A stretch of DNA of 64,000 nucleotides from the NCBI GenBank assembly GCA_026396115.1, contig JAPLXL010000004.1, positions 19,805-83,804 on the forward strand. The letters are read 5' to 3'. This DNA is from Candidatus Nealsonbacteria bacterium. GTDB taxonomy: Bacteria; Patescibacteriota; Minisyncoccia; Minisyncoccales; RBG-13-42-11. The translations under genes were made by a program, and so were the position numbers. Position 1 is the first letter of the stretch; the number at the start of each line of letters is the position of its first letter. The notes beneath the pieces are model-generated. The model did not search any database and had not been told where the DNA came from. It worked only from the letters and a program-made list of their open reading frames with translations. This document shows, piece by piece, positions 1 to 62,575 of the stretch.

Positions 1-42
1 TTTGTTTTCTTCTCCACCCTCGCTTCCTTCGGAAGCTCGGTA
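1..42 (+). repeat. GCPE repeat, full form (5' part cut by window edge)
   Basis: TTCTCCACCCTC-GCTTCC-ttc-GGAAGC-TCGGTA; ends 2 nt before ATG at 44 (CTCGGTATATG). Confidence 0.8.
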
Positions 43-3664: not shown

Positions 3665-3666
3665 TA

Positions 3667-3723
3667 GGCGAAGAGGAATTCGTCCTCTTCTTCACCTTCG
3701 TTTTTATAAATAAAAACTCGGTA
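3667..3723 (+). repeat. GCPE repeat, full two-hairpin form
   Basis: GGCGAAGAGGAattcgTCCTCTTCTTCACCTTC-GTTTTTataaatAAAAAC-TCGGTA; ends 1 nt before ATG 3725 (CTCGGTATATG). Confidence 0.9.
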
Positions 3724-9774: not shown

Positions 9775-9869
9775 TGAAATATAAATTGGGTTATAACCCC
9801 GTAGAGACTTGCTCAAAATGAGCAGATGAAAATAAAATTTTCATAATACGTCAGCCCCACCAAGGTTAG

Positions 9870-9924
9870 CTCGAAGAAGCTACGCTTCTTCTCGACCTTC
9901 GCTTTTGCTTCGCAAAAGCTCGGT
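9870..9924 (+). repeat. GCPE repeat, full form, inside intron 1 (P8-equivalent hairpin)
   Basis: CTCGAAGAAGCtacGCTTCTTCTCGACCTTC-GCTTTTGCttcGCAAAAGC-TCGGT between AATACGTC and GATATAGTCC; intron 2 has a plain hairpin here. Confidence 0.85.
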
Positions 9925-10068
9925 GGGTGAAGATATAGTCCGATCCTCCTTGTAAAAGGAGAAAAATACCGACAGCGATGTCGGCTCATCTCATCCTGGG
10001 GGTGAAGCAGCTCCCAAGGGTTTGGCTGTTCGCCAATTAAAGAGGTACGTGAGCTGGGTTCAAACCGT

Positions 10069-10388
10069 GGTTCCAATTTGGAACAGGCGGCCTCATTGGG
10101 CAATCAATGAGTGCAAAAACCCCGCACCAAAACTTTTAGTTTGATACGGGGTAAACCGACTAATATCGGTGAAGTCCATAGAAATTCTTTCAACCTGTAT
10201 TTCTATGGATAATACCGAGGCAAGTCCAATTTAAAAAGTTGGATGAGCCGTAGAGACTTTTCGCCGCAGAGGCGAAAGATGGAAGTTAACCTTCCATAAT
10301 ACGTCGGTCCCCTAAACCCGGTTGCTAAAAGCAACTTAGGGTCGGGTGGTGATATAGTCCATACATTTAGTAATAAGTGAAGTATATG
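10069..10388 (+). mobile_element. Group I intron 2 in 23S (approx. E. coli 2593, I-CreI-type site), ORF-less
   Basis: Splits GGGTTCAAACCGT|CGTAAGACAGGTTGG; 5' exon ends in T, insert ends in G; shares CCGTAGAGACTT..AATACGTC..GATATAGTCC core with intron 1. Confidence 0.85.
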
Positions 10389-10706
10389 CGTAAGACAGGT
10401 TGGTCCCTATCTACCGTAGGCGTTGAGTCTTGAGGGGGGTTCTCACTAGTACGAGAGGATCGTGAGGAACTGACCTCTGGTCTACCAGCTGTTCCACCAG
10501 GAGCATTGCTGGGTAGCTAAGTCGGGAACTGATAAGTGCTGAAAGCATCTAAGCGCGAAGCAGGCCCCAAGATTAGGACTCTTAGATTCCCCGCAGATTA
10601 CGGGGTTGATAGGCTGCAGGTGTAAGTGCAGTAATGCATTCAGCCGAGCAGTACTAATAAATCATTGATTTTTTGTTGCCCAATTAAACTGGGCTAGTAA
10701 TTAATG

Positions 10707-10762
10707 ACCGAGCCCCGCAATAGCGTGGCGAGGGGGAAGAAGAAAACTTTGTTTTCTTTGCC
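10707..10762 (-). repeat. GCPE repeat, variant full form, in 23S-5S spacer
   Basis: ACCGAG-CCCCGcaataCGTGG-CGAGGGGGAAGAAGAAAACtttGTTTTCTTTGCC. Confidence 0.7.
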
Positions 10763-10785
10763 CTTCACAAAAGCAAAAGGCGCTG

Positions 10786-11521: not shown

Positions 11522-11540
11522 TTGTGATAAAATTAACCCA

Positions 11541-11583
11541 GTCGAAGAGATAAATCTCTTCTTAACCCTTCATCGTCATTCGG
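11541..11583 (+). repeat. GCPE repeat, CATYGTCATTCGG-tail variant
   Basis: GTCGAAGAGATaaATCTCTTCTTAACCCTTCATCGTCATTCGG; 2 nt before mreC ATG 11586. Confidence 0.8.
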
Positions 11584-11585
11584 AT

Positions 11586-12766: not shown

Positions 12767-14855
12767 AAGACGAAGAGTACTTCGTCCGTCGAGTCAAATA
12801 CGAGACGAAAGAAGAAAAACTTTTCTTCGCACTCTTCTTCACATTCGCTTCCATAAATGGAAACTCGGTAACAGAAGAATTCAACTCGCTTTTAAGGAAG
12901 ACATTGAGCCTCACGAGATTCTTTTGGATTCTCTTGCCGAAAAAAAAGAAAAAGAGTTGGGCCTTTCGGAAAAGAAATTTGAAGTCCCTCTTCTAAAAAG
13001 AATTATCCAAAGTTTTTTTATTTTTTGTTTTTTTATAATATTGTTTCTTTTTTTTAAAACCTTTCAACTTCAGGTGGTTGAAGGAAAAAATTTTATCCAA
13101 CTGGCAGAGAGAAATAAATTTATCATTCACCATATTCAGGCGGAGAGAGGAGTTATTTATGATAAAAACTTAGAACAATTGGTTTTTAACAAATCAACAT
13201 TTGATTTAATTTGCGAAAAAAGTAAGATTCCTCAAGATGAAGCCGAGAAAGAAAGAATTTTACAACAAGTTTCAAAGTTTCTTGAAAAAGACGTTAAAGA
13301 GCTAAAAAAAGAAATCGACGAATCTGAATCCGATCAAGTTTTGATTGCTAAAAATCTTTCTCATCAGGAATTAATTTTATTTGAAACAAGAATTGACGAG
13401 TTCCTGGGCTTCCAAATAAAAAACAATGTTATCAGAGAATATAGAGATGGTGAAGTTTTTAGCCAGATTATCGGCTATACGGGAAAAATAAAAAGCGAAG
13501 AATTTGAGGCAGCCCCCGAATTTTATTTAATTAATGATTATGTTGGTAGAACCGGCGTAGAAAATTTTTACGAAAGATTTTTGAGAAAAAATCCTGGAAA
13601 ATTAAGAATTGAAAGAGATGTTTTTGAAAACGTAATTTCCAAAGAAGTTGTTTCTCTGCCAGAATCCGGAAAGAGTTTGGTTTTGTGGTTGGATGCCGAT
13701 TTGCAGAGAAAGACAGAAGAAGAATTGGAAAAAAAATATAAAGAAATTGGAGCCAAAGGAGCAATAGCCATAGCCATGGATCCCAAAACCGGCGGCATAT
13801 TATCTTTGGTTTCTCTACCCAGTTTTGATAATAATTTATTCCAAAAGGGAGCTGACCAAAAATCTCTTCAAGCTCTTTTGGAAGATTCTCAAAATCTTAA
13901 TTCGCTCTTCGACCGAGCGATTTCCGGAAGATATCTGACGGGTTCAACCATAAAACCCTTAATTGCTTCAGCCGCTCTTGAAGAAAAAATAATTAATCCT
14001 GATGAAAAAATTAATTGTCAGGGGCTGATAGAGGTTGAACACACCTATACATCTGAAACCACTGAATTTCTCGACTGGACAGTGCACGGCTGGACGGATT
14101 TAAGAAAAGCCATTGCTGAATCTTGTAACGTTTACTTTTATACAGTAGGAGGAGGATATAAAGAACAAGAAGGTTTGGGACCGACCAAAATTAAAGAATA
14201 CTTAGAACTTTTTGGCTGGGGGGAGAAGACCGGTATTGATCTTCCTGGCGAAATTAATGGTTTTATTCCCGATAAAGAATGGAAAAAAAGAGTTTTAGGA
14301 GAAGGTTGGTGGGATGGTAACACTTATAATCTTTCAATCGGCCAGGAATATCTTCAAATTACTCCCTTGGAAGTGGTGACTAGTTTTTCAGCCATTGCTA
14401 ATGGCGGAAAATTGCTTCAGCCTCAAGTGGTTAAAGAAATAATTACTACTTCAGGCACCTCAACTGAAGTTTCAGTAGTCGAAGAAGATTTATCTTCTTC
14501 TTCACCCTTCGCTGCGGCTCGGGTAGTTAAGGAATTTGAGCCAGAAATTATTAGAGAAAACTTTATTGATCCTGGAAATCTTCAAATTGTTAGGGAGGGA
14601 ATGAGGCAGGCAGTAACCGGACAAAATTCTCCTCTGGCCTCGTCCGTAATATTGAATTCCTTGCCCATAGCTGTTGCCGCCAAAACCGGGACAGCCGAAT
14701 TGGGAGGAGATAGATATCATAACTGGGTTACTGTTTTTGCGCCTTACGAAGATCCGGAAATTGTTTTAACGGTGATGATTGAAGATGTTAAAGGCGTTCA
14801 GGCAGCTGTCTTGCCCGTGGCCAAAGCAATTTTAGAATGGTATTTTACTAAATAA
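12735..14855 (+). CDS. mrdA: Penicillin-binding protein 2 (elongasome transpeptidase)
   Basis: 706 aa; TM helix then PBP dimerisation and transpeptidase domains (STIKP = SxxK, KTGTAE = KTG); mreCD neighbours; two repeat inserts. Confidence 0.87.
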   Translation: MLEFLSFKKFKRRRVLRPSSQIRDERRKTFLRTLLHIRFHKWKLGNRRIQLAFKEDIEPHEILLDSLAEKKEKELGLSEKKFEVPLLKRIIQSFFIFCFFIILFLFFKTFQLQVVEGKNFIQLAERNKFIIHHIQAERGVIYDKNLEQLVFNKSTFDLICEKSKIPQDEAEKERILQQVSKFLEKDVKELKKEIDESESDQVLIAKNLSHQELILFETRIDEFLGFQIKNNVIREYRDGEVFSQIIGYTGKIKSEEFEAAPEFYLINDYVGRTGVENFYERFLRKNPGKLRIERDVFENVISKEVVSLPESGKSLVLWLDADLQRKTEEELEKKYKEIGAKGAIAIAMDPKTGGILSLVSLPSFDNNLFQKGADQKSLQALLEDSQNLNSLFDRAISGRYLTGSTIKPLIASAALEEKIINPDEKINCQGLIEVEHTYTSETTEFLDWTVHGWTDLRKAIAESCNVYFYTVGGGYKEQEGLGPTKIKEYLELFGWGEKTGIDLPGEINGFIPDKEWKKRVLGEGWWDGNTYNLSIGQEYLQITPLEVVTSFSAIANGGKLLQPQVVKEIITTSGTSTEVSVVEEDLSSSSPFAAARVVKEFEPEIIRENFIDPGNLQIVREGMRQAVTGQNSPLASSVILNSLPIAVAAKTGTAELGGDRYHNWVTVFAPYEDPEIVLTVMIEDVKGVQAAVLPVAKAILEWYFTK
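12769..12870 (+). repeat. GCPE repeat, long form, in frame in the PBP2 N-terminal tail
   Basis: GACGAAGAGTACTTCGTCCGTCGAGTCAAATACGAGACGAAAGAAGAAAAACTTTTCTTCGCACTCTTCTTCACATTC-GCTTCCataaatGGAAAC-TCGGTA; near-identical to the reverse complement of 10997-11093. Confidence 0.9.
14478..14524 (+). repeat. GCPE repeat, short form, in frame in PBP2
   Basis: GTCGAAGAAGAtttaTCTTCTTCTTCACCCTTCGCTGCGGCTCGGGT, read as VEEDLSSSSPFAAARV. Confidence 0.88.
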
Positions 14856-30515: not shown

Positions 30516-30564
30516 ATCTTCGATTCATTTCGTACTTTCAATGAATTTTCAATTCATCTCGGTG
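30511..30564 (+). repeat. GCPE-architecture variant with TGAAT arms (dnaK-dnaJ spacer)
   Basis: ATGAATCttcGATTCAT-TTCGTACTTTC-AATGAATTttcAATTCAT-CTCGGTG. Confidence 0.6.
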
Positions 30565-30591
30565 AGAAATAACATACAGTGTTTTTAATAT

Positions 30592-35596: not shown

Positions 35597-35866
35597 TTGC
35601 TTATGTTAACAAAAATAAAACAGTTTGTCAAAACTTATCAAACCGACATCATTTTAGTGATTGGCGTTGTTTTAATTTCTTTGCTTTCTTTTGCCATGGG
35701 TTATATTGTAGCAAAACAGCAAGAAAAGGAACCCATTAAAATTGAAAAAGGAGTTGAAGAAGAGTCCTTCTTCTCCACCTTCGCTTTCGCTACGCGAAAG
35801 CTCGATAGTCGAAGAGAGCTTCGCTCTCTTCTTTACCTTCGCTTCCTGCGGAAGCTCGGTGTATGA
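35597..35866 (+). CDS. Small membrane protein; C-terminal half is read-through of two repeats
   Basis: TM helix [22 protein letters not shown]; from about residue 52 the frame runs through repeats 35753-35861 with no stop until 35866. Confidence 0.4.
35753..35807 (+). repeat. GCPE repeat, full form (first of head-to-tail pair)
   Basis: GTTGAAGAAGAGtcCTTCTTCTCCACCTTC-GCTTTCGCtaCGCGAAAGC-TCGATA. Confidence 0.9.
35808..35861 (+). repeat. GCPE repeat, full form (second of pair)
   Basis: GTCGAAGAGAGCttcGCTCTCTTCTTTACCTTC-GCTTCCtgcGGAAGC-TCGGTG; 1 nt before ATG 35863. Confidence 0.9.
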
Positions 35867-36840: not shown

Positions 36841-36860
36841 ATTATAATAATGTCTCACGG

Positions 36861-36915
36861 GGCGGAGAGAACTTCGTTCTCTTCTTCCACTTCGTTCCCA
36901 TAAATGGAAACTCAG
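36861..36915 (+). repeat. GCPE repeat, full form; uppS ATG lies in the SL2 loop
   Basis: GGCGGAGAGAACttcGTTCTCTTCTTCCACTTC-GTTCCCataaATGGAAAC-TCAGC. Confidence 0.85.
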
Positions 36916-37629
36916 CAAACAAATACCATTCCCAAGCATATAGCTATTATTCCCGATGGCAATCGGCGTTGGGCTAAAAAACGAAAGCTTCAACCCTGGA
37001 TTGGCCATCGAGTAGGAGTAAAAGCTTTTGAGAAAATTTTAGAAAAAAGCCGAGAATTAAAAATTCCTTATATTACTTTTTGGGGAGGATCTTGGGATAA
37101 TTTAACTAAAAGATCAAAAACGGAACTTAGTTTTTTATTTAAGATATATACCGAACAATTTAAAAGAATAGTAAAAGATAAAAGAATTCATCAAGATAAA
37201 GTCAAGATTAGTGTTTTGGGACGCTGGAAGGAAGTTTTGCCAAAAATAACGAAAGTCGCAGTTAAAAAAGCCATTGAGGCAACAAAAAATTATAACAATT
37301 ATTTTTTAACCTTTCTTTTGGCTTATAATGGTACGGACGAGATGTTGGATTGCGTCCAAAAAATCGCGGAAATTACACAAGATAAAAAAATAAAAATTAC
37401 CAAAAATTTAATTAAAGAAAATCTTTGGACAAAAGATTTACCGCCTGTTGATCTCGTGATTAGAACCGGCTGCAACCAAGATCCTCACCTTTCAGCTGGC
37501 TTTATGATGTGGGACACAACCTATTCCCAGTTCTATTTTAGCGAAACTTTTTTTCCCGTTTTTGGCCCAAAAGAATTTGAAAAAATCATTGAAGATTTTT
37601 CGGAGAGGGAAAGAAGATTGGGTAGGTAA
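36904..37629 (+). CDS. uppS: Undecaprenyl-diphosphate synthase
   Basis: HIAIIPDGNRRWA, cis-prenyltransferase fold blocks, C-terminal ERRLGR. Confidence 0.93.
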   Translation: METQQTNTIPKHIAIIPDGNRRWAKKRKLQPWIGHRVGVKAFEKILEKSRELKIPYITFWGGSWDNLTKRSKTELSFLFKIYTEQFKRIVKDKRIHQDKVKISVLGRWKEVLPKITKVAVKKAIEATKNYNNYFLTFLLAYNGTDEMLDCVQKIAEITQDKKIKITKNLIKENLWTKDLPPVDLVIRTGCNQDPHLSAGFMMWDTTYSQFYFSETFFPVFGPKEFEKIIEDFSERERRLGR

Positions 37630-38055: not shown

Positions 38056-38135
38056 GCTCAATGAATATAAAATTCATTTCGCCTTTGAGCTCAATGAATA
38101 TAAAATTCATTTCGCCTTCGATATTGATTCGGCTA
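38056..38135 (+). repeat. GCPE-architecture variant with TGAAT arms, SL1 unit duplicated in tandem
   Basis: GCTCAATGAATATAAAATTCATTTCGCCT occurs twice (38056-38084, 38088-38116), then TCGATATTGATTCGGCTA tail; overlaps the 3' end of gene 38107..38625. Confidence 0.65.
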
Positions 38136-38625
38136 TAGAAAGCCATTTTTGGCCCTGAATCTTCTTAATTTTGTATTTTTGCATTATTTTCTGTATTTCT
38201 ATTAATTGCAGAAAATCTTCTTTTTTCCATTCTTTAATTGCTTTTCCTTTGTTTTGAAAAAGGATTTCGATGGCTTTGCTCCACCATTCAGAATTCTGTT
38301 TTCTGTTTCCGGACAAGTCATATTCCTTGAAAAAGGGAATTACTTTATTGTAAAGATCGTCAATGCTTTGAACGGAATATCTGATTTTGTTTTCACCGAC
38401 AAAATGAAGCAGGCCGCAATTAAGAGAATTTTGGATTTTTCTTAATAAATCTTCATCTTTATATTTTCCCATAACCACAAACTGAGCTTTCCATCCATAA
38501 TAAACGGGACGATTGGTTCTTTTATATTTAACATCCCTTCTAAACTGCAAGTCAAAACAACCTTGACTATTTATAAAATCAATAATTTGTTTTTTTGATG
38601 ATATTTTTTCTTTTGCTTTGTTCAT
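38107..38625 (-). CDS. Free-standing LAGLIDADG-type endonuclease-like protein
   Basis: IIDFINSQGCF (compare GFxDxEGCF), later VIPFFKEYDLSGNRKQNSEWWSKAI (compare IPFFxKYxLxGxKxxDF); the acidic residue before G is Gln. Confidence 0.6.
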   Translation of the reverse strand: MNKAKEKISSKKQIIDFINSQGCFDLQFRRDVKYKRTNRPVYYGWKAQFVVMGKYKDEDLLRKIQNSLNCGLLHFVGENKIRYSVQSIDDLYNKVIPFFKEYDLSGNRKQNSEWWSKAIEILFQNKGKAIKEWKKEDFLQLIEIQKIMQKYKIKKIQGQKWLSIAESISKAK

Positions 38626-38633
38626 GTGATTGA

Positions 38634-39581
38634 TTATTCCTTTAGGCTGTGGAATTTTCGATGAATATCTCGAAGTTGTTTGCTGGTAACATGAGCATAA
38701 ATTTGAGTGGCAGCAATACTTTTGTGGCCTAGAAACTCTTGGATGGTTCTTAAATCTACTCCTTGGTTAAGTAAATCGGTAGCGAAACTATGCCTCATCA
38801 CATGGGGAGTGGTTGTCAGTGGTAATCCAGCTAAAATGGCGCATTTTTTAATTATTTTTTCAATTGAACGAGGAGTTAATCTCCGGGGAGCCCTAATTTT
38901 GGAGCGATAATTAATAAATAAAGCTTTCTCTTTATCTTTACGCGTTTCAAGATATTTTTTTAACCAAAATAAAGCTCTTTGAGAGAAATAAACCGTTCGA
39001 ATTCTCCCTCCTTTACCAACGATTGAGAGTTCCAATTCTTCCATTCCTAGCTTTATTTTAATTTGCTCCCGGTTTAATGCTGTAAGTTCGGCTATTCTCG
39101 TACCCGTTGAAAACAAGGTTTCTAAAATAGCGCGGTCCCTTAAACCTTGAATTTTAGAAACATCGGGAGTTAAAAATAGTTTTTCTAATTGTTCTAAATT
39201 TAAAAAACGAACTTGTCTTTCACCTTTATCTTTGGCTAATTTTATTTTTTCTGCTGGTAGAGAGAGAATGTCGCGGTCGGCAAAATAGTTTAGGAGGGAC
39301 CTGAGGGCTATTAAATAATAATTCTGAGTTGACTTTTTGAGGGGTTGCTTGGTTTTAGGGAGATATTGGCGAGAAAGGAAGAGGCGGTATTTCCAGATGT
39401 GTTCGGGAGTTAATTCGTGCGGCTTCAAATTTTCTAAGCTACTTATTTCTAGCCAATCAAAAAATCTTTTCAGAAATCTTGCATAATTTTCTTGAGATTT
39501 TGATGATAAACCTTTCTCAATCTCAAGCCAGTCCAGAAAATCTGATAGATGGTGGGGGATTGGTTTTGGGCTTTTCTCCAT
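38634..39581 (-). CDS. Tyrosine recombinase (XerC/XerD-like integrase)
   Basis: SAM-like N-domain; catalytic blocks GTRIAEL, HVMRHSFATDLL, LGHKSIAATQIYAHV. Confidence 0.87.
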   Translation of the reverse strand: MEKSPKPIPHHLSDFLDWLEIEKGLSSKSQENYARFLKRFFDWLEISSLENLKPHELTPEHIWKYRLFLSRQYLPKTKQPLKKSTQNYYLIALRSLLNYFADRDILSLPAEKIKLAKDKGERQVRFLNLEQLEKLFLTPDVSKIQGLRDRAILETLFSTGTRIAELTALNREQIKIKLGMEELELSIVGKGGRIRTVYFSQRALFWLKKYLETRKDKEKALFINYRSKIRAPRRLTPRSIEKIIKKCAILAGLPLTTTPHVMRHSFATDLLNQGVDLRTIQEFLGHKSIAATQIYAHVTSKQLRDIHRKFHSLKE

Positions 39582-40280: not shown

Positions 40281-40337
40281 ACCGAACTTTCGCGCAGTGA
40301 AAGCGAAGGTGAAGAAGAAAACGAAGTTTTCTTCGCC
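40281..40337 (-). repeat. GCPE repeat, full form
   Basis: ACCGAACTTTCGCgcaGTGAAAGCGAAGGTGAAGAAGAAAACgaaGTTTTCTTCGCC; 2 nt from ATG at 40278 (GTTCGGTATATG on gene strand). Confidence 0.9.
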
Positions 40338-40338
40338 T

Positions 40339-41931: not shown

Positions 41932-42672
41932 TCATCTAGTTAAATATGCCACAAGATAATTGGCAATTATCCAGCCGGCTTCAGGCCTGGAAAATCCTTT
42001 TGCTTCTTCGGACATTTTTTTGAGTGCTTCAGGATCAGTAAAAAGAGATTTTAATTTTTCTAAGAAAAAATGAGAAGTAAAATTATTTTCTTCCATTACT
42101 AAACAAGCGCCGGACTCTTGGTAAGTATAAGCGTTTTTCACCTGATGGTTTTGAGCGGATTCTGATAAAGGAATTAAAACAGAAGGTTTGCCGGCGGCCG
42201 CAATTTCAAAAATACTTCCAGATCCTGCCCGGCTGACAATTAAGTCAGCAGCTGCATAAGCTTGGCGAAGTTCTGGCTCTTTCAAAAAAGGATAAAGATG
42301 ATAAAAGGGTTCCAAATCTTTATTTATTATTAGTTTTAATTCTGCTTTTATTGTTGCATAGTTATTTTTTCCGCATTGATGGATTACTTCAAAGTTTTCC
42401 AAAAGTCGCGGCAGGATTTCTAAAATTTCGTCATTAATTCTCTGGGCTCCTTGCGATCCACCCAGAATTAAAATAACGGGTTTGACTAAGGGCGAAGAAG
42501 ATTTATCTTCTTCTTTACCCTTCGCTGCGGCTCGGGTGGGCGAGGAAATTAAATATTTCACATTGGAAGGGTTTGATGGGGTAAAACCGCTTTTAACCGA
42601 GAGCGAAGAAGATAAATCTTCTTCTTCCCCCTTCGCTACCGCTCGGGAGGGCGAATCTCCTTCTCCGCCCAT
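41932..42672 (-). CDS. murG: MurG C-terminal (UDP-GlcNAc-binding) domain only, fused to about 60 repeat-derived residues; truncated or split gene
   Basis: ILGGSQGAQ..., SRAGSGSIFEIAAAGKPSVLIP, NHQVKNA blocks match the MurG C-domain; no N-domain ORF upstream on this strand. Confidence 0.6.
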   Translation of the reverse strand: MGGEGDSPSRAVAKGEEEDLSSSLSVKSGFTPSNPSNVKYLISSPTRAAAKGKEEDKSSSPLVKPVILILGGSQGAQRINDEILEILPRLLENFEVIHQCGKNNYATIKAELKLIINKDLEPFYHLYPFLKEPELRQAYAAADLIVSRAGSGSIFEIAAAGKPSVLIPLSESAQNHQVKNAYTYQESGACLVMEENNFTSHFFLEKLKSLFTDPEALKKMSEEAKGFSRPEAGWIIANYLVAYLTR

Positions 42673-43279
42673 TGAAAATATTGTTATTTATCAACAAATT
42701 GATAATGATATCTATTATTTAGATAATTTTGGTCATCTTTTTAAAAACGGGGCAAGAATTACCGCCATGCCCTTCCCAATAAAACAAGAAACTGGATATG
42801 TTTTAGAAATTTTTCAAGGTTTTATCTTTTTACGAGAATTAAATGGTGACTTGTATAAATTTAATCCCGATCTAAAAGTTTTTGAGAATTTTTTTGAAAG
42901 AATCAATTCTTTGAAAATTTCTCCGGATAATAAAAAACTGGCGTATTTCTCAAATCATGAAATCTGGATTCTTTTTTTAAGCGATAAAAACGATCCGCCG
43001 CAAAAAAAAACAGGAGAAAAACTTTTTTTAATTCGTTTATCAGAAGCAATAACCGATGTTTTTTGGATAAACTCTGACTATTTAATCTTTATTGCCGGAG
43101 ACAAGATTAAAATTAGCGAAATAGACGACAGAGACAAACTAAATATTATAGATATTTTTGAAACAAAAAAACTTCCGCAAAACGGAAGCTCCTTGGAAAT
43201 GTTTTGGAATCAATTTGATAAAAAGTTATATCTCTTGAGCGGAAACAATTTATACGGTTCTGGCGCTCTTCTCCCTTAA
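42482..43279 (+). CDS. Hypothetical protein (possible C-terminal beta-propeller-like fragment); N-terminus read from repeats
   Basis: ISPDNKKLAYFSNHEIWIL and DVFWINSDYLIFIAGDKI resemble TolB/PD40-type blade repeats; TTG start; first about 60 aa are GCPE-encoded. Confidence 0.4.
   Translation: MTKGEEDLSSSLPFAAARVGEEIKYFTLEGFDGVKPLLTESEEDKSSSSPFATAREGESPSPPIENIVIYQQIDNDIYYLDNFGHLFKNGARITAMPFPIKQETGYVLEIFQGFIFLRELNGDLYKFNPDLKVFENFFERINSLKISPDNKKLAYFSNHEIWILFLSDKNDPPQKKTGEKLFLIRLSEAITDVFWINSDYLIFIAGDKIKISEIDDRDKLNIIDIFETKKLPQNGSSLEMFWNQFDKKLYLLSGNNLYGSGALLP
42490..42537 (+). repeat. GCPE repeat, short form
   Basis: GGGCGAAGAAGAtttaTCTTCTTCTTTACCCTTCGCTGCGGCTCGGGT. Confidence 0.88.
42601..42648 (+). 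repeat. GCPE repeat, short form
   Basis: GAGCGAAGAAGAtaaaTCTTCTTCTTCCCCCTTCGCTACCGCTCGGGA. Confidence 0.88.
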
Positions 43280-44118: not shown

Positions 44119-44636
44119 CACTGAGGGGCTCTTCTGGCTCTTTTTAAGCCGAATTTCTTTCTTTCCCGCATTCTCGGATCTCTTTTTAAATAACCTGCCT
44201 TTTTTAGTTTTTTTCTAAAGTCGGGGTTAAACAAAACCAAAGCTCTGGCCACTCCGTGCCTAACAGCTTCAGCTTGTGAAACCGTCCCCCCTCCCTTTAC
44301 TTTTACTGAAACTTTAAATTGTTCCAGGCAATCCATTAAATTTAAGGGAGCATAAACTGCTTGCTGAAGTTCTATCGTTGGAAAATATTCTTCTAAAGGT
44401 TTTTCGTTAACCACCGAGCTTTCGCGAAGCGAAAGCGAAGGTAAAGAAGAGGACGAAGTCCTCTTCGACGAACCCCCTTCTTTCCGGGAAAAAAGGCGAA
44501 CCCTGGCAACGGCTGTTTTTCTTCTTCCCACGCCTTCAAAATATTTTTCTTTTTTTGTCTTCAAGGGCTCTTTGGTTTTTTTAGCGATAACGGTTTTTTT
44601 CGTTTTTTTTGTCATTGTTTTTTTCATAAATCGCAT
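44106..44636 (-). CDS. rpsI: 30S ribosomal protein S9 with in-frame repeat insertion
   Basis: GRRKTAVARVRL, VKGGGTVSQAEAVRHG, C-terminal RRAPQWSKR; Lys-rich N-terminal extension; 19-codon insert. Confidence 0.93.
   Translation of the reverse strand: MRFMKKTMTKKTKKTVIAKKTKEPLKTKKEKYFEGVGRRKTAVARVRLFSRKEGGSSKRTSSSSLPSLSLRESSVVNEKPLEEYFPTIELQQAVYAPLNLMDCLEQFKVSVKVKGGGTVSQAEAVRHGVARALVLFNPDFRKKLKKAGYLKRDPRMRERKKFGLKRARRAPQWSKR
44413..44469 (-). repeat. GCPE repeat, full form, in frame in rpsI (57 bp)
   Basis: ACCGAGCTTTCGCgaaGCGAAAGCGAAGGTAAAGAAGAGGAcgaagTCCTCTTCGAC, read as [19 protein letters not shown]. Confidence 0.92.
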
Positions 44637-44983: not shown

Positions 44984-45083
44984 ACCAAGCCCCGCGCAGC
45001 GGGGCGAATTCGAAGAAGATTCCTTCTTCTCCACCTCAGTTGAAGCTTCGGTAGGTGAAGATGAGAACGAATTTCTCATCGCC
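44984..45083 (-). repeat. GCPE triple composite unit
   Basis: ACCAAGCCCCGCgcaGCGGGGCGAATTCGAAGAAGAttcCTTCTTC-TCCACCTCAGTTGAAGCTTCGGTAG-GTGAAGATGAGAACgaattTCTCATCGCC; abuts rplM ATG. Confidence 0.88.
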
Positions 45084-46200: not shown

Positions 46201-46830
46201 CTACTTTGAATAAAATGCAAAAATTGACGAGAGTTCTGCTGGAGAGGCAGCCTCTTCTAAATTTGGTGAAATTGTGACCTTTCCCTCTAAGTTCTTGATA
46301 TCTAATTCTAGCCAAGATGGAAGATTATGTTTTTTTAAAAGGGTGGGCAATTTTTGAAAGATGGTTTTTTTTGCGGAACCGGGGTTAATACTAATTTTGT
46401 CGCCTTTTTTAACCAAATAACCGGGGATATTAATTGGTTCATTATTTATCATAAAATGGCGATGGGAAACCATTTGACGGGCAGCAGTTCTAGAGGGAGC
46501 AAATCCAAATCTAAAAACTACATTATCTAAACGACTCTCTAATATCTTAATCAAAGCTGCTTCGGCATCCACGACTTTACCTCGCGCTTTTAAGATTTCT
46601 TTTACATATTTCCGCAATTGTCTTTCTTCTAAATTATACCAATTTTTTAATTTCTGCTTTTCTCTTAACTCTTTACCATATTCAGAAAGAGCCCTTGCTC
46701 TTCTTTTTGCTTTGGGACCGGGCGGATAAGGTTTTCTTATCATCGGACATTTCTGCGATAAGCACTTCTCTCCTCGCAAAAAAAGCTTTATTCCTAATCG
46801 ACGACAAATTTTACATTTAGAATCTTTCAT
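46201..46830 (-). CDS. rpsD: 30S ribosomal protein S4
   Basis: Start moved to ATG 46830 (MKDSKCKICRRLG..); Zn-ribbon Cys, S4 domain. Confidence 0.94.
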   Translation of the reverse strand: MKDSKCKICRRLGIKLFLRGEKCLSQKCPMIRKPYPPGPKAKRRARALSEYGKELREKQKLKNWYNLEERQLRKYVKEILKARGKVVDAEAALIKILESRLDNVVFRFGFAPSRTAARQMVSHRHFMINNEPINIPGYLVKKGDKISINPGSAKKTIFQKLPTLLKKHNLPSWLELDIKNLEGKVTISPNLEEAASPAELSSIFAFYSK

Positions 46831-46832
46831 AT

Positions 46833-46888
46833 ACCGAGCTTCCATTTATGGAAGCGAAGGTGAAGAAGAGGACGAAGTCCTCTTCGCC
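46833..46888 (-). repeat. GCPE repeat, full form (rpsK-rpsD spacer)
   Basis: ACCGAGCTTCCatttatGGAAGCGAAGGTGAAGAAGAGGAcgaagTCCTCTTCGCC; CTCGGTATATG junction with rpsD. Confidence 0.93.
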
Positions 46889-46891
46889 AAT

Positions 46892-47863: not shown

Positions 47864-47920
47864 ACCGAGCTTTCGCGCAGCGAAAGCGAAGGTGAAGAAG
47901 AAAACGAAGTTTTCTTCGCC
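47864..47920 (-). repeat. GCPE repeat, full form (infA-rpmJ spacer)
   Basis: ACCGAGCTTTCGCgcaGCGAAAGCGAAGGTGAAGAAGAAAACgaaGTTTTCTTCGCC; CTCGGTATATG junction with rpmJ; extra half-site ATCGAGCTTT at 47922-47931. Confidence 0.93.
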
Positions 47921-47941
47921 TATCGAGCTTTATTTCTTTGA

Positions 47942-48157
47942 CTATTTTCCGCGGTATACTATTCTTCCTCTTTTTTCATCATAGGGACTTAATTCTACGC
48001 TAACATTGTCTCCGGGTAAAATTTTAATTCGGAACATTCTTAATTTTCCTGCTAAATAACAGAGAATTTCTCCTCCCTGATCTAACTTCACCTTAAAATG
48101 CGTACTGGGTAAAGCTTCTATAACAGTTCCGGTTTTTCTTAAATTTTTTTTATCCAT
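47942..48157 (-). CDS. infA: Translation initiation factor IF-1
   Basis: 71 aa S1-like OB fold; [31 protein letters not shown]. Confidence 0.94.
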
Positions 48158-49879: not shown

Positions 49880-51628
49880 TTATTCTAAAATAGCCTGAAT
49901 TCTTCGCACTCCGGCACCAGAACTTTCTTCTTTTATAATTTTAAATAAGCCCAATTCTGAAGTTCTTTTAATGTGGGGACCGGCACAAATTTCTTTCGAG
50001 AAGTCTTCGATTAAAAAAACTGTTACGATTTCGGGATATTTTTCTTTAAAAACCGAGTTTCCGCGAAAAGGAAACGAAGGTGAAAAAGAGGATTTATCCT
50101 CTTTGCCCAAAGCTAAAGCCCCGCTTTTTATTGCAGCCTTATAATTCATCTCTTCTTTTTTTACCTCCAAATCTTCTTTGATTTTCTGATTAACAAGACT
50201 TTGAACTTTTTTAATTTCATTTTCTGTCATCTTTTGATGATGAGAAAAATCAAATCTTAATCTTTGAGAAGTAATATCTGAACCCATTTGTTTAACATGC
50301 TCCCCTAAGATTTTTCTTAAGGCAGCCTGAAGCAAATGAGTGGCGGTATGAAGTTTTGTTGTCTCATAAGTCACTTCCTTTCCTACTCCGCCAAATTTAC
50401 TTTCTACCCCGGCTCTGGAAATCTCTTGATGTTTTTTAAAAGCCTCTTCAAATCCTTTTTGATCAATATTTAAATTTCTTTCTTTAGCAAGTTCAATTGT
50501 TAGTTCTAAAGGGAAACCATAGGTATCATACAGATGAAAAGCATCAACCCCAGAAATATTCCCTTTTTTGGAAATGTTCTCAAACTGCTTTAATCCTTCA
50601 TGGAGAGTTCTTTCAAATTTTTCTTCCTCTTGTTGAATTACGGTTAGAATCTCTTCTTCTTTTGATTTAATTTCCGGATAAACATTTTTGTAGATTTCAA
50701 TTACTTTTTGAGCCAGAAGAATTAAGAAATTAGCAGGTAAATTAAGCAATTTGCCGTATCTGATTGCTCTCCTTAGAATTCTTCTCAGAACGTATCCCTT
50801 CTCAACATTGGAAGGCAAAATCCCATCCGAAATCAAAAAAACTGCACTCTTCACATGATCAGCAATAATCCTTCCCCCTTTTAAATTTGCAGGGGTCCGA
50901 CCCGTGTATTTTTGAAGCTCGCCGATAATTGACTCGAATAAATCGGTCTCAAAGACGCTGGATTTATTTTGAACAATCATTGCTAATCTCTCTAATCCCA
51001 TGCCAGTGTCAACGCCCTTTTGTACCAATGGAGTAAGTTGCTTATTTTTATCTTGATAATATTCATTAAAAACCAGATTCCAAACTTCGATGCCCTTAAT
51101 ATGAATTTCGGTTGTTGGGCCGCAGGGGCCTTCTTGACCGGTCGGACCCCAAAAATTATCTGCTCTTCCGCATTTTTTTATTTTATTTTTATGAACTCCT
51201 AATTCTTTCCAAATTTCAACCGATTCTTCGTCTTCCGGCACATCTTTATCACCCTCAAAAACTGTAAAAATTGTTTCCTTCAGGGGCAATTTTAATTCTT
51301 TAAAAATAAACTCGTAAGCCCAACTTATCGCTTCCTTTTTGAAATATCCCCCAAAAGAAAAATTACCCAACATTTCAAGAAAAGTTAAATGGCTTTCATC
51401 TCCCACTTCTTCAATATCAGAAGTTCTAAAACATTTCTGGCAAGAACAGACATTCTGACCATAAGGGGATTTTTCTACCAGATAATAAGGCTTAAATTGC
51501 TGCATTCCGGCCGTGGTAAAAAGAACCGAGGGGTCGGTCGGAATAAGCGAGATGGGGGGCACTATTTTATGCCTCTTTTTTTCAAAGAATTTCAAAAATT
51601 GTTCTCTTAATTTTCTCGAGGTCATCAA
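49880..51628 (-). CDS. alaS: Alanine--tRNA ligase, compact form (no C-Ala domain) with repeat insert
   Basis: FTTAGMQQFKP catalytic block, editing-domain HTATHLL and CAGPHI motifs; 582 aa versus about 870 in model bacteria. Confidence 0.9.
   Translation of the reverse strand: MMTSRKLREQFLKFFEKKRHKIVPPISLIPTDPSVLFTTAGMQQFKPYYLVEKSPYGQNVCSCQKCFRTSDIEEVGDESHLTFLEMLGNFSFGGYFKKEAISWAYEFIFKELKLPLKETIFTVFEGDKDVPEDEESVEIWKELGVHKNKIKKCGRADNFWGPTGQEGPCGPTTEIHIKGIEVWNLVFNEYYQDKNKQLTPLVQKGVDTGMGLERLAMIVQNKSSVFETDLFESIIGELQKYTGRTPANLKGGRIIADHVKSAVFLISDGILPSNVEKGYVLRRILRRAIRYGKLLNLPANFLILLAQKVIEIYKNVYPEIKSKEEEILTVIQQEEEKFERTLHEGLKQFENISKKGNISGVDAFHLYDTYGFPLELTIELAKERNLNIDQKGFEEAFKKHQEISRAGVESKFGGVGKEVTYETTKLHTATHLLQAALRKILGEHVKQMGSDITSQRLRFDFSHHQKMTENEIKKVQSLVNQKIKEDLEVKKEEMNYKAAIKSGALALGKEDKSSFSPSFPFRGNSVFKEKYPEIVTVFLIEDFSKEICAGPHIKRTSELGLFKIIKEESSGAGVRRIQAILE
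50052..50106 (-). repeat. GCPE repeat, full form, in frame in the alaS editing domain
   Basis: ACCGAGTTTCCgcgaaaaGGAAACGAAGGTGAAAAAGAGGAtttaTCCTCTTTGCC, read as GKEDKSSFSPSFPFRGNSV. Confidence 0.88.
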
Positions 51629-52181: not shown

Positions 52182-52934
52182 TCAGTTTAAATCAATATCT
52201 TTTACTATTTTAATAAACTCCTTCGCGTTTAAAGATATACCACCGATTAAAAGTCCTTGGAAACCCCCTTTTTTGATGTAATCTCCGGCATTTTGAAAAT
52301 TAACGCTGCCTCCATAAAGGATGGGAATTTTTTTATTTAATACTTCCTTTTTAATTAATATTCTCATTTTATTGGCTTTTTCGACACTACAAGGTTTACC
52401 CGTGCCAACAGCAAAAATGGGCTCATAGGCGATTATCAAATTCGATAATTCTTTTTTGACAAGACCGCTTAAATCTTTTTTAAGGCGAAGAGGGCTTCGG
52501 CCTCTTCTTCCACCTCGTTTCCTTAAGAAGCTCGGTATTTGAGAAATATTATCAATACATAAAATTACTTTTAACCCCGTCTTCAAAGCGGCTTTTAATT
52601 TTTTGTTTATCATTTCATCGGTCTCTTTCTGATATTTTCTTCTTTCGGAATGGCCGATAATTACATATTTTATGCCCGTATTTTTTAACATTAAAGGTGA
52701 AATCTCGCCGGTAAAAGCGCCCTTTTCTTCCCAAAAACAACTTTGCCCTCCAAAGCTTACAACGGAAGATGGCTCCTGACTGACAAGCAAAGAAAGATAA
52801 ACAAATGGCGGACAAATTACCACCTCTGAATTTTTTACATTTTTTATCCCTTTTCTTATTGAATCAAAAAGCTTCTCAGCTTCCCGTAAAGTTATTGGAT
52901 TACATTTCCAATTAGCGACAATTAATAGTTTCAT
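52182..52934 (-). CDS. tpiA: Triosephosphate isomerase with in-frame repeat insertion
   Basis: ANWKCN, IIGHSERR, AYEPIFAVGTG, YGGSV motifs. Confidence 0.93.
   Translation of the reverse strand: MKLLIVANWKCNPITLREAEKLFDSIRKGIKNVKNSEVVICPPFVYLSLLVSQEPSSVVSFGGQSCFWEEKGAFTGEISPLMLKNTGIKYVIIGHSERRKYQKETDEMINKKLKAALKTGLKVILCIDNISQIPSFLRKRGGRRGRSPLRLKKDLSGLVKKELSNLIIAYEPIFAVGTGKPCSVEKANKMRILIKKEVLNKKIPILYGGSVNFQNAGDYIKKGGFQGLLIGGISLNAKEFIKIVKDIDLN
52484..52537 (+). repeat. GCPE repeat, full form, in frame (antisense reading) in tpiA (54 bp)
   Basis: GGCGAAGAGGGCttcGGCCTCTTCTTCCACCTC-GTTTCCTTaaGAAGC-TCGGTA, read on the gene strand as PSFLRKRGGRRGRSPLRL. Confidence 0.9.
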
Positions 52935-54082: not shown

Positions 54083-54131
54083 ATCGAGCTTCCGAAGGAA
54101 GCGAAGATGAAGAAGAGATTTATCTCTTCAA
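54083..54131 (-). repeat. GCPE repeat, full form (GT2-galT spacer)
   Basis: ATCGAGCTTCCgaaGGAAGCGAAGATGAAGAAGAGATttATCTCTTCAA; supplies the last codons and stop of the GT2 gene. Confidence 0.9.
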
Positions 54132-59138: not shown

Positions 59139-59240
59139 ATCGAGCTTTCGCGTAGCGAAAGCGAAGTCGAAGAAGATTTCTTCTTCTCCACCTCAGCTGA
59201 AGCTTCGGTAGATGAAGAAGAGGACGACGTCCTCTTCGCC
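59139..59240 (-). repeat. GCPE triple composite unit (rplR-rpsE spacer)
   Basis: ATCGAGCTTTCGCgtaGCGAAAGCGAAGTCGAAGAAGAtttCTTCTTC-TCCACCTCAGCTGAAGCTTCGGTAG-ATGAAGAAGAGGAcgacgTCCTCTTCGCC; abuts rpsE ATG. Confidence 0.92.
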
Positions 59241-62270: not shown

Positions 62271-62507
62271 TTATCCTTGAGGCGAAGAGGACTTCGTCCT
62301 CTTCTTCACCTTCGCTCCGCTGCCGTGGAGCTCGGTTAATAAAGTTAATATTTGGGCGATTTCTTTTTTAACCTTGCGGATTTCTCTGACATTTTTTACT
62401 TTTCCTGTTATCAAATCAAATCTAAGCTGTCTTAATTTTTCTCGATCATCTCTTAAGATCTTTTGAATTTCTTCTTTAGATTTTCTGCGCAATTCGTCAA
62501 TTTTCAT
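62271..62507 (-). CDS. rpmC: 50S ribosomal protein L29 with repeat-derived C-terminal extension
   Basis: L29 helical hairpin (ELRRKSKEEI..LRQLRFDL..); last about 19 aa (LHGSGAKVKKRTKSSSPQG) encoded by repeat 62281-62336. Confidence 0.9.
   Translation of the reverse strand: MKIDELRRKSKEEIQKILRDDREKLRQLRFDLITGKVKNVREIRKVKKEIAQILTLLTELHGSGAKVKKRTKSSSPQG
62281..62336 (+). repeat. GCPE repeat, full form, forming the rpmC 3' end
   Basis: GGCGAAGAGGActtcgTCCTCTTCTTCACCTTC-GCTCCgctgccgtGGAGC-TCGGT. Confidence 0.9.
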
Positions 62508-62509: not shown

Positions 62510-62563
62510 ACCGAGTCCCGTTTACGGGACGAAGGTGAAGAAGAGAACGAAGTCCTCTTCGCC
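62510..62563 (-). repeat. GCPE repeat, full form (rplP-rpmC spacer)
   Basis: ACCGAGTCCCGtttaCGGGACGAAGGTGAAGAAGAGAACGAAGTCCTCTTCGCC; CTCGGTTTATG junction with rpmC. Confidence 0.9.
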
Positions 62564-62575
62564 TTATAACTTATT

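What the first reader, a model, noticed from the sequence alone, without database searches (positions are those of the whole stretch)
46828..46888. GCPE tail is fused to start codons: CTCGGT-NN-ATG at many genes
In the orientation SL1-SL2-CTCGGT the element ends 0-2 nt before the start codon of the downstream gene. CTCGGTATATG or a one-off variant occurs at 44, 3725, 40278(-), 46830(-) and 47861(-). Other junctions are CTCGGTGTATG at 35863, CTCGGTTTATG at 62507(-), TTCGGATATG at 11586, GCTTGGTATG at 44983(-) and GCTCGATATG at 59138(-). Spacing is 6-30 nt at serS, rplI, dnaJ, galT and infA. The uppS ATG (36904) sits in the SL2 loop. Fixed phasing at 10 or more independent genes, several inside the ribosomal-protein operon, is unlikely to be chance. 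The element might provide a translation-initiation leader (its purine-rich 3' SL2 arm GGAAG lies about 8 nt before the ATG) or an RNA processing or stabilising site. Alternatively it might insert preferentially next to start codons.
Basis: partly seen in the sequence, partly recalled or inferred. Interest (0 to 1): 0.75.

Follow-up and report, generated by a model that had tools for sequence, protein, structure and literature searches.

The report
Mobile hairpin repeat landing before ATGA starts
A 51-58-base two-hairpin repeat that litters this tiny Parcubacteria-type genome sits exactly two bases before many start codons because it inserts three bases upstream of a TGA/TAA-like triplet, which genes beginning ATG-A provide in a harmless spot, not because it acts as a ribosome-binding leader.

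Summary
CTCGGT-NN-ATG occurs 6 times exactly (0.19 expected), and all ten listed junctions check out.

It also holds across the family. In about 0.9 Mb of independent metagenome contigs, 35 of 49 copies with a gene start within 60 nt have it exactly 2 nt after CTCGGT. The flipped orientation shows no peak.

The cause is broader than the start codon. After CTCGGT comes NNN, then T(83%)-R(98%)-A(98%). ATG is simply "A+TG" of A-TGA. 34 of 35 phased genes start ATGA, against 33% of element-free genes.

Comparison with three syntenic relatives gives clean filled and empty sites:
- the element is a 51-57-nt insertion, (A)GGCGAAG...CTCGGT;
- it has no target duplication and no terminal inverted repeats;
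- the ATG and the TRA are native to the target.

Copies also lie in frame inside alaS, tpiA, rpsI, PBP2 and grpE, and inside a 23S intervening sequence. Native spacers are tiny (median 8 nt), and genes here lack Shine-Dalgarno sites.

Best reading: a selfish element resembling the Rickettsia palindromic elements, with a fixed-offset target motif. Insertions 2 nt before ATGA starts survive because they damage neither neighbouring gene. A leader, processing or stabilising role is unsupported but not excluded. The mobilising enzyme is unknown.

The parts
46833..46889 (-). The copy named in the finding. It fills the rpsK-rpsD spacer; the tail CTCGGT (46838-46833) is followed by AT and then the rpsD ATG (46830-46828).
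   Evidence: nhmmer E 3e-21. L123 has an empty 5-nt spacer, TAA-TCATT-ATG.
46828..46830 (-). Native rpsD start codon, followed by A (ATGA), giving the TGA target triplet.
   Evidence: S4 homologues are 209 aa; flank rule.
47864..47921 (-). Copy in the infA-rpmJ spacer: CTCGGT-AT-ATGAAAGTT. The infA stop TAG is formed from TA plus the element's G.
   Evidence: The empty site in L123 is TAA-C-ATGAAAG.
62510..62564 (-). Copy in the rplP-rpmC spacer: CTCGGT-TT-ATGAAA.
3666..3722 (+). Copy between the ABC permease gene and a small secreted-protein gene: CTCGGT-AT-ATGAAA (ATG at 3725).
1..41 (+). Copy truncated by the window edge: CTCGGT-AT-ATGATT (ATG at 44).
35807..35860 (+). Second unit of a tandem pair: CTCGGT-GT-ATGAAG (ATG at 35863, FAD oxidoreductase beginning MKIAIIGAG).
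40281..40338 (-). Copy between gltX and a 118-aa ORF: TTCGGT-AT-ATGAAG.
11540..11585 (+). Short-variant copy ending TTCGGAT, directly before the mreC start ATGATA.
   Evidence: (family D17).
44984..45038 (-). Variant copy ending CTTGGT, directly before the rplM start ATGCAA. This is the only phased start in the window without ATGA.
59139..59194 (-). Variant copy ending CTCGAT, directly before the rpsE start ATGAGA.
36860..36918 (+). Copy whose SL2 loop (TAA-ATG) supplies the uppS start codon at 36904. The degenerate tail is translated.
50053..50109 (-). 57-nt in-frame insertion in alaS (sense orientation), absent from L122, L123 and L124.
44414..44471 (-). In-frame insertion in rpsI (uS9), absent from L123 and L124. 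It corresponds to an insert of about 19 aa relative to solved uS9 structures.
52484..52537 (+). 54-nt in-frame insertion in tpiA (antisense to the gene). The empty site in L122 fixes the boundaries as (A)GGCGAAG...CTCGGT, with no target duplication.
14475..14525 (+). Short (D3) subfamily copy translated inside PBP2 as VVEEDLSSSSPFAAARVV.
62279..62340 (+). Antisense copy forming the C-terminal 18 aa of L29. L29 is 60 aa in L245 and 78 aa here.
9872..9928 (+). Copy inside a roughly 450-nt intervening sequence of the 23S rRNA gene.
10703..10766 (-). Copy in the 23S-5S spacer.

Best explanation
The element is a small, non-autonomous, recently mobile repeat. It is modally 54 or 57 nt long, with consensus (A)GGCGAAGAGGAC-TTCG-GTCCTCTTC-TTCACCTTCG-[variable hairpin]-CTCGGT. 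It occurs in Parcubacteria-type Patescibacteria.

It inserts without target duplication at sites that carry Y-R-A (mostly TGA or TAA) exactly 3 nt downstream of the insertion point. Its own 5' end has the same layout: junction, then AGG, then CGA or CAA.

A gene that begins ATG-A offers such a TGA. The matching insertion point is 2 nt before the ATG, inside the stop-start spacer. In these genomes that spacer is only a few bases long, so this position damages neither neighbouring gene.

Purifying selection removes most of the other insertions. Survivors therefore pile up as CTCGGT-NN-ATGA, or lie in frame within tolerant parts of proteins, or lie in non-coding RNA spacers.

The start codon is native. 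Translation still works because initiation here does not use a Shine-Dalgarno site, and the AUG stays unpaired just 3' of the hairpins.

Shown: insertion polymorphism, element boundaries, the flank motif, the ATGA dependence, and the absence of Shine-Dalgarno sites.
Inferred: that the motif reflects target choice by a trans-acting enzyme, possibly one that acts on hairpinned single strands; that selection explains the enrichment at starts; and that the in-frame copies are translated.
For: Observation and density: 6 exact motif hits against 0.19 expected. About 48 copies or fragments lie in 64 kb.

Presence/absence among syntenic relatives (14-kb block): 15 copies in the window, 14 in L122, 6 in L123, 3 in L124.

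Clean filled and empty pairs:
- tpiA, 54 nt; the empty site is TTTTA|ATTTGAG
- alaS, 57 nt; the empty site is ...T|CTTTAAGG
- rplM-rpsI, 51 nt; the empty site is CGCGAT|TTATGAAAA
- infA-rpmJ; the empty site is TA|ACATGAAAG
- rpoA, rplC and rplD, all with native ATGA

Flank logo from 121 non-tandem copies on independent contigs: after CTCGG comes T (.99), N, N, N, T (.83), G or A (.73/.25), A (.98), against a 4.5% background for TRA.

Phasing: 35 copies at d=2 against at most 2 elsewhere. The flipped orientation is flat.

ATGA dependence:
- 34 of 35 phased genes start ATGA, against 16 of 49 element-free genes; p = 7e-16
- window Fisher test p = 0.001
- In the Nealsonbacteria ribosomal-protein operon (L247), 8 of 11 ATGA genes are phased against 0 of 8 non-ATGA genes; p = 0.002

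Copies inside long ORFs carry TRA in 28 of 40 cases.

Native spacers have a median of 8 nt. There is no Shine-Dalgarno enrichment. The AUG is unpaired in 4 of 6 predicted folds.

Both hairpins covary: 95.6% of cells are paired, with 256 double changes against 81 in shuffles.
Against: - No mobilising enzyme was found. The window has no transposase. tblastn with remembered Y1-transposase sequences gave nothing in 0.9 Mb.
- Only about eight filled/empty pairs were examined.
- At rpsD the empty relative reads ATGGTC, not ATGA. At rpsD-rpoA the native 18-nt spacer has vanished in L122, where the window and L123 show it was ancestral; L124 also has the element flush from stop to ATG. Insertion is therefore not always a simple cut-and-fill.
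- Occupancy of ATGA starts is near saturation in L247: 10 of 11 counting variants. Positive selection could also produce this.
- About a fifth to a third of tails lack a strict TRA.
- SL2 pairing was partly required by my detection regex, so its covariation is inflated. SL1 was not constrained.
Confidence: 0.7

Rival explanations
1. Functional leader or operon punctuation. Copies at gene starts are kept because the two hairpins act in the mRNA. Possible roles are a processing site, a 3' stabiliser for the upstream cistron, a way of keeping the AUG region unstructured, or a standby site. Under this view the phasing is selected.
For: - Sense orientation predominates upstream of genes: 49 sense against 22 flipped within 60 nt.
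- The AUG is left single-stranded right after stable hairpins, with z-scores from -1.9 to -4.3.
- Both stems show strong compensatory change.
- 10 of 11 ATGA genes of one ribosomal-protein operon carry a copy.
- The SL2 3' arm is always purine-rich.
Against: - The same NNN-TRA flank occurs at copies inside ORFs and at non-start copies.
- The +4 A requirement has no obvious role in a leader.
- Relatives with 91-95% identical proteins have empty 1-8-nt spacers at the same junctions.
- The SL2 sequence is hypervariable, and the genome shows no Shine-Dalgarno use.
- Occupancy differs from lineage to lineage.
Confidence: 0.15
2. Pure compaction artefact. The element inserts anywhere, but spacers are so short that any surviving intergenic copy must abut the start codon.
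For: - Element-free same-strand spacers have a median of 8 nt, and 29 of 41 are 20 nt or less.
- Elements also abut or overlap upstream stop codons, with a median gap of 3 nt.
- Empty spacers of 1 and 5 nt are seen at rpmJ and rpsD.
Against: - Random placement in 0-10-nt spacers would spread d over 0-8. Observed is 35 at d=2 against 1 at d=0 and 2 at d=5.
- In the rplM-rpsI case the insertion lies 2 nt from the ATG but at least 6 nt from the stop.
- Flipped copies show no phasing.
- The ATGA dependence is unexplained.
Confidence: 0.05
3. The element carries its own ATG(A). On insertion it replaces or creates the start of the downstream gene, so the start codons are element-derived.
For: - uppS starts at the ATG in the SL2 loop.
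- The S4 N-terminus is MKD next to the element but MVN at the empty site.
- One copy (L055) ends CTCGGTAAATGAATTAA, where the ATG is not a gene start.
- Elements donate stop codons to GT2, lysS and infA.
Against: - Empty sites already contain the same ATGA and downstream codons at rpmJ, rpoA, rpsI, rplC and rplD.
- TGA or TAA is already present at the tpiA and alaS sites.
- Inserted lengths are exactly 51, 54 or 57 nt, ending at CTCGGT.

Confidence: 0.1

Closest known systems
Rickettsia palindromic elements (RPE)
   Same: Small palindromic repeats without coding capacity of their own. They are scattered through a reduced genome, found in intergenic regions and RNA genes, and very often inserted in frame into unrelated housekeeping protein genes, where they are thought to be tolerated (review PMC10969869). 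The mobilising mechanism is unknown.
   Different: This element is 51-58 nt rather than roughly 100-150 bp. The host phylum is unrelated (Patescibacteria), and sequence relatedness to RPE families was not tested. Here there is a strict fixed-offset flank motif (NNN-YRA) and exact phasing to ATGA starts. I know of neither feature for RPEs (from memory).
REP/BIME elements and their RAYT (Y1, HUH) transposases; IS200/IS605-derived palindrome-associated elements
   Same: Hairpin-forming repeats with no terminal inverted repeats and no target duplication. They are asymmetric, and a short specific sequence flanks one defined end. The target motif resembles a motif at the element's own end (here YRA 3 nt inside the 5' end and 3 nt beyond the 3' end). 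Tandem and inverted clusters occur.
   Different: REPs are extragenic and typically tagged GTAG or CGTC (PMC3733652). Here GTAG is seen only in some copies, and many copies are intragenic. In IS608-type elements the target tetranucleotide abuts the end (from memory), whereas here it is offset by 3 nt. No Y1 or RAYT gene was found.
MITEs that alter neighbouring gene expression (Correia/CREE, ERIC, RUP, BOX)
   Same: Abundant short structured repeats lying next to genes, and co-transcribed with them in the known families. Some members are known to supply promoters, RNase III sites or ORF fusions (review PMC10969869; PMC2759123).
   Different: Those have terminal inverted repeats and a target duplication (often TA). 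This element has neither. No expression effect has been shown here.
IS91/ISCR rolling-circle elements (target-specific, no duplication)
   Same: Insertion next to a fixed tetranucleotide without target duplication, and with asymmetric ends (from memory).
   Different: Those are kilobase-sized and encode a Y2 HUH transposase. No such gene was seen here.

Membership tests
Rickettsia palindromic elements (RPE-like behaviour) | Palindromic repeat able to form a stable hairpin | tested here: met
   Two stems are 95.6% paired across 103 copies, with compensatory changes. Folding z-scores range from -1.9 to -4.3.
Rickettsia palindromic elements (RPE-like behaviour) | In-frame insertion into unrelated protein-coding genes that stay open | tested here: met
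   54/57-nt indels in alaS, tpiA and rpsI relative to syntenic relatives. uS9 has an insert relative to PDB structures. 40 of 130 copies in the pooled window-plus-metagenome set lie inside ORFs of at least 150 codons.
Rickettsia palindromic elements (RPE-like behaviour) | Sequence homology to an RPE family, in a Rickettsia host | not tested
   The host is Parcubacteria-like, and the element is 51-58 nt rather than roughly 100-150 bp. No RPE consensus was available for alignment.
MITE (class II non-autonomous transposon) | Terminal inverted repeats | tested here: not met
   The ends GGCGAAGAGG and ...GCTCGGT are not inverted copies of each other.
MITE (class II non-autonomous transposon) | Target-site duplication flanking the insertion | tested here: not met
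   Filled and empty sites at tpiA, alaS and rplM-rpsI show no duplicated bases beyond a 1-nt ambiguity.
REP / RAYT system | GTAG or CGTC tetranucleotide tag at one end of the palindrome | tested here: not met
   The 5' flank is A at -1 (63%), T at -2 (45%) and G at -3 (23%). GTAG therefore precedes GCGAAG only in some copies, chiefly at tandem junctions (CTCGGTAGGCG).
REP / RAYT system | Extragenic location | tested here: not met
   Many copies are intragenic.
REP / RAYT system | Cognate RAYT gene in the genome | tested here: inconclusive
   None in the window or in 0.9 Mb of loci by tblastn with remembered sequences. No complete genome was available.
IS200/IS605-type single-strand transposition (PATE-like) | Subterminal hairpins, no inverted repeats, no target duplication | tested here: met
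IS200/IS605-type single-strand transposition (PATE-like) | Insertion immediately 3' of a specific tetra- or pentanucleotide that resembles the cleavage motif at the other end | tested here: inconclusive
   A specific motif exists (YRA, which reads TYA on the flipped strand) and is mirrored inside the element's other end. However, it is offset by 3 nt from the junction.
IS200/IS605-type single-strand transposition (PATE-like) | Y1 (HUH) transposase acting in trans | tested here: inconclusive
   Not found in the sequence available.
Shine-Dalgarno-type translation leader | Conserved, accessible purine-rich anti-16S motif 5-10 nt before the AUG, as used by other genes of the organism | tested here: not met
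   The SL2 3' arm is variable and paired. There is no Shine-Dalgarno enrichment at 40 element-free genes. The 16S 3' end is not in the window.
Any described RNA family (Rfam 15) | Match to a covariance model | tested here: not met
   Only rRNA and tRNA reach gathering scores in the window. The best sub-threshold hit on the element has E = 0.41, to an unrelated snoRNA.

The most novel reading that the evidence does not exclude
An undescribed, currently active family of micro-elements specific to Patescibacteria. It is mobilised by an as yet unidentified site-specific system that reads a hairpinned strand and an NNN-YRA target. Copies parked 2 nt before ATGA starts have been co-opted as operon punctuation (mRNA processing, stability or start-site insulation) in bacteria that lack Shine-Dalgarno-driven initiation.
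Probability: 0.2. Interest if true: 0.8.

Novelty: new variant of a known kind. Interest (0 to 1): 0.6.

Why it matters
**Mechanism of small palindromic repeats.** How repeats of this kind spread, and above all how they enter protein genes in frame, has stayed unresolved since the Rickettsia elements were described. This family offers unusually clean material:
- about one copy per kilobase;
- abundant insertion polymorphism between close relatives;
- exact boundaries;
- a sharp flank rule (NNN-YRA) that mirrors the element's own end.

Together these make the cleavage and joining chemistry, and the search for the enzyme, directly testable.

**Tolerance of streamlined genomes.** The smallest, most streamlined bacterial genomes can carry a heavy load of selfish DNA even inside ribosomal proteins, aminoacyl-tRNA synthetases and TIM.

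**Practical consequences.** The elements break assemblies: contigs end in them. They also mislead gene callers, producing N-terminal extensions from the loop ATG and C-terminal read-through. And they inflate apparent protein insertions in analyses of Candidate Phyla Radiation (CPR) proteins.

Tried and rejected
1. **Genome-collection scan with too loose a pattern.** Only 5 loci held true copies: three MAGs labelled Saccharibacteria, one Parcubacteria and one Woykebacteria.
2. **Exact look-up of the window's S11.** It found only a 1-kb contig that ends inside the element.
3. **TA target duplication (IS630/mariner-like).** Rejected. Flank dinucleotides do not match, and empty sites show no duplication.
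4. **TGA as a stop codon for ORFs reading through the element (termination-reinitiation coupling).** Rejected. No copy has an ORF of 100 codons or more ending at that TRA. Upstream frames are open for at most 89 codons.
5. **GGAAG as a Shine-Dalgarno site.** Rejected.
6. **Element inside mature 23S rRNA.** The copy lies in an intervening sequence of about 450 nt that holds a LAGLIDADG remnant, not in conserved rRNA.
7. **Phage origin.** No matches in viral contigs.
8. **Transposase search.** Pfam on 10 unassigned ORFs and tblastn with remembered TnpA/RAYT sequences found nothing.
9. **Literature.** No paper in the held library contains the element's sequence or describes such repeats in Patescibacteria.
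Full report
**What is at the coordinates.** On the minus strand, 46889-46833 reads (T)GGCGAAGAGGAC-TTCG-GTCCTCTTC-TTCACCTTCG-CTTCC-ATAAAT-GGAAG-CTCGGT, followed by AT and the rpsD ATG at 46830. The rpsK stop codon is at 46892, so the element fills the whole spacer. The window is AT-rich (about 36% GC) and compact. It holds 23S-5S rRNA genes, two tRNAs, and a long ribosomal-protein operon on the minus strand. The best named relatives of S4 and L16 are Candidatus Nealsonbacteria and Pacebacteria, both Parcubacteria within Patescibacteria.

- CTCGGTNNATG occurs 6 times against 0.19 expected.
So are the longer spacings at serS, rplI, infA and galT, and the uppS ATG in the SL2 loop.
- Start codons are well called. 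S4 homologues are almost all 209 aa, the length given by ATG 46830. The L36, L29, L13, S5 and Rossmann-fold N-termini are canonical.

**What the element is.**
- A profile built from 23 copies finds about 48 copies or fragments in 64 kb, on both strands.
- Stop-to-stop translation shows that many copies lie inside conserved genes with the frame kept open: PBP2, a murF-like gene, degT, ftsQ, grpE, rpsI, alaS, tpiA and the C-terminus of L29.
- One copy lies in the 23S gene, but inside an intervening sequence of about 450 nt that holds a degenerate LAGLIDADG remnant. Another lies in the 23S-5S spacer.
- No Rfam family matches.
- No paper in the held library contains the element's sequence or describes such repeats in Patescibacteria.

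**It is an insertion, and recently mobile.** I fetched three syntenic relatives, with S4 identity of 94% (L122), 91% (L123) and 78% (L124), and aligned about 14 kb. Copy number in that block is 15 in the window, 14 in L122, 6 in L123 and 3 in L124. Many copies are lineage-specific.

Clean filled and empty pairs fix the boundaries:

| Site | Empty allele | Inserted in |
|---|---|---|
| tpiA | TTTTA\|ATTTGAG | window, 54 nt |
| alaS | ...AGCTTT\|CTTTAAGG | window only, 57 nt |
| rplM-rpsI | CGCGAT\|TTATGAAAA | L123, 51 nt |
| infA-rpmJ | TA\|ACATGAAAG | window and L122 |

- At infA-rpmJ the insertion split the infA stop codon, which is rebuilt as TA plus the element's G.
- The rpsK-rpsD spacer is empty in L123 (TAA-TCATT-ATG).
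- The element therefore runs from (A)GGCGAAG to CTCGGT. It has no target duplication and no terminal inverted repeats.
- The uS9 insert shows up as about 19 extra residues relative to every solved uS9 structure.

**The phasing holds across the family.** A metagenome scan using a pattern that contains no flank information returned 120 loci; with the syntenic loci L122-L124 these make about 0.8 Mb.
- Without any gene annotation, I took 175 non-tandem tails (the 120 loci plus L122-L124 and the window) and asked where the first ATG opening an ORF of at least 60 codons lies. It is at the CTCGGT-NN-ATG offset in 41 copies, and at any other offset from 0 to 59 in at most 4.
- In a stricter set with defined 5' ends, 35 of 49 copies with a start within 60 nt have it at d=2. 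The flipped orientation has 22 nearby starts spread evenly.
- Short spacers alone therefore cannot explain the phasing, although spacers are indeed short. Element-free same-strand spacers have a median of 8 nt, and elements also sit 0-4 nt from the upstream stop.

**The real rule.** The flank after CTCGG is T (99%), N, N, N, T (83%), G or A (73%/25%), A (98%) in 121 non-tandem copies. TRA occurs at 4.5% of positions in the background. ATG appears only when the base before TGA is A.
- 34 of 35 phased genes begin ATGA, against 16 of 49 element-free genes (binomial p = 7e-16).
- In the window, phasing is associated with ATGA (Fisher p = 0.001).
- In the ribosomal-protein operon of a Nealsonbacteria genome (L247), 8 of 11 ATGA genes carry a canonical phased copy, and 10 of 11 counting variants. 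None of the 8 non-ATGA genes does (p = 0.002).
- Most copies inside long ORFs, in either orientation, carry the same TRA (28 of 40). There it is out of frame, so the motif is not about translation.
- The triplet is native to the empty sites at tpiA, alaS, rpmJ, rpoA, rpsI, rplC and rplD.
- The element's own 5' end has the same geometry: junction, 3 nt, then CGA or CAA. This suggests one recognition rule for both the element end and the target.

**How it most likely works.**
- Shown: the element is a mobile insertion with a fixed-offset Y-R-A flank. Phased starts are native ATGA codons. The genome does not use Shine-Dalgarno sites (8 of 40 genes have a Shine-Dalgarno-like 4-mer, against a 14% background). 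The AUG is predicted unpaired just 3' of the hairpins in 4 of 6 cases. Both stems covary: 95.6% of cells are paired, with 256 double changes against 81 in shuffles and at most 71 for slid controls. SL2 pairing was partly imposed by my detection regex; SL1 was not.
- Inferred: a trans-acting enzyme inserts the element 3 nt upstream of Y-R-A. Selection then keeps insertions that damage no gene. The position 2 nt before an ATGA start is the commonest such place in a genome with spacers of 0-10 nt.
- More speculative: the chemistry resembles single-strand HUH (Y1/RAYT, IS200/IS605, IS91) systems, which also lack inverted repeats and target duplications and use a short flank motif. No such gene was found, and the 3-nt offset is atypical.

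**Rival explanations.**
- A selected mRNA function (leader, processing or stabilisation) remains possible as an add-on. Near-saturation of ATGA starts in L247 and the strong structural conservation would fit it. It does not explain the ATGA requirement, the same flank at intragenic copies, or the empty junctions in close relatives.
- The pure compaction explanation is contradicted by the offset histogram.
- Element-borne start codons are contradicted by the empty sites, with exceptions. uppS uses the loop ATG. GT2, lysS and infA take their stop codons from the element.

**Unexplained.**
- At rpsD-rpoA, L122 and L124 independently have elements flush from stop codon to ATG. The window and L123 keep an 18-nt spacer there, so L122 has lost it; for L124 the ancestral state cannot be told.
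- The S4 N-terminus differs between filled alleles (MKD) and the empty allele (MVN).
- The short D3 subfamily is always translated in the same frame.

**Comparison with known systems.** In behaviour the closest analogue is the Rickettsia palindromic element family: small palindromic repeats that enter housekeeping genes in frame (PMC10969869). In inferred mechanism the closest are the REP/RAYT and IS200/IS605-type systems. The element fails the defining tests for MITEs (no inverted repeats, no duplication) and for REPs (not extragenic, no constant GTAG tag). It matches no Rfam family.

I rate it a new variant of a known kind. It is an apparently undescribed family, seen in Parcubacteria-type genomes and in a few MAGs labelled Woykebacteria or Saccharibacteria.

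Noticed in passing
window 9524-9975: The 23S rRNA gene (6898-10677, about 855 nt longer than the Rfam model) carries an intervening sequence of about 450 nt. The Rfam alignment resumes at model position 2527. The insert contains a degenerate LAGLIDADG ORF remnant (…ILGDGYL…) and one copy of the repeat.
   Followed up: partly
window 38107-39581: A free-standing LAGLIDADG endonuclease ORF (Pfam PF00961, E = 4.6e-13) sits next to a xerC-like recombinase gene. This is exactly where gene orientation and GC/AT skew switch sign (about 38-40 kb), which may mark a replication terminus or dif region.
   Followed up: no
window, upstream of 40 element-free genes: No Shine-Dalgarno enrichment: 8 of 40 genes have an SD-like 4-mer, against a 14% background. 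Leaders are A/T-rich, with T at -1 in 53%.
   Followed up: yes
window 14459-14530, 19737-19808, 20311-20346, 22710-22781, 28393-28449, 42472-42654: A short subfamily has SL1 plus CCCTTCGCTGCGGCTCGGG and no SL2. It lies inside PBP2, a murF-like gene, degT, ftsQ, grpE and the ORF at 42.5 kb. It is always read in the same frame (G-E-E-D-K/L-S-S-S-S/L-P-F-A-x-A-R), although a second frame is also open.
   Followed up: partly
window 54120-54129; 16339-16347; 47942-47944; 36904: Elements donate gene punctuation. GT2 ends at the TAA in an SL1 loop. lysS ends at a TGA created by the variant GGGCGATGAG. The infA stop TAG is TA plus the element's first G. uppS starts at the ATG of an SL2 loop.
   Followed up: partly
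window 30510-30565; L245 6412-6468: An AT-rich variant has the same architecture: AATGAATCTTCGATTCATT, then a TTCACCTTTC-like linker, then a second AT hairpin, ending CTCGGT in the window copy. It occupies the dnaK-dnaJ spacer here and the rplP-rpmC spacer in a 95%-identical relative. In that relative's position this window has the GC-rich form.
   Followed up: partly
L122 10631-10791; L124 10631-10688 (rpsD-rpoA junction): In two relatives the element (3 units in L122, 1 in L124) runs flush from the S4 stop to the rpoA ATG. This window and L123 keep an 18-19-nt spacer there, so L122 has lost it; the ancestral state for L124 is unknown. Insertion was accompanied or followed by loss of the spacer.
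   Followed up: partly
L001; L127 4-179; L050: Assemblies break at the repeat. A 1-kb Logan contig carrying this window's S11 ends inside the element. One contig starts with three tandem copies. Another has an N-run abutting a copy.
   Followed up: no
window 41932-43279: A murG C-terminal domain ORF on the minus strand (Pfam PF04101) overlaps a 265-aa plus-strand ORF with no Pfam match. Two repeat copies at 42472-42654 lie in the overlap, so gene structure here is unclear.
   Followed up: no
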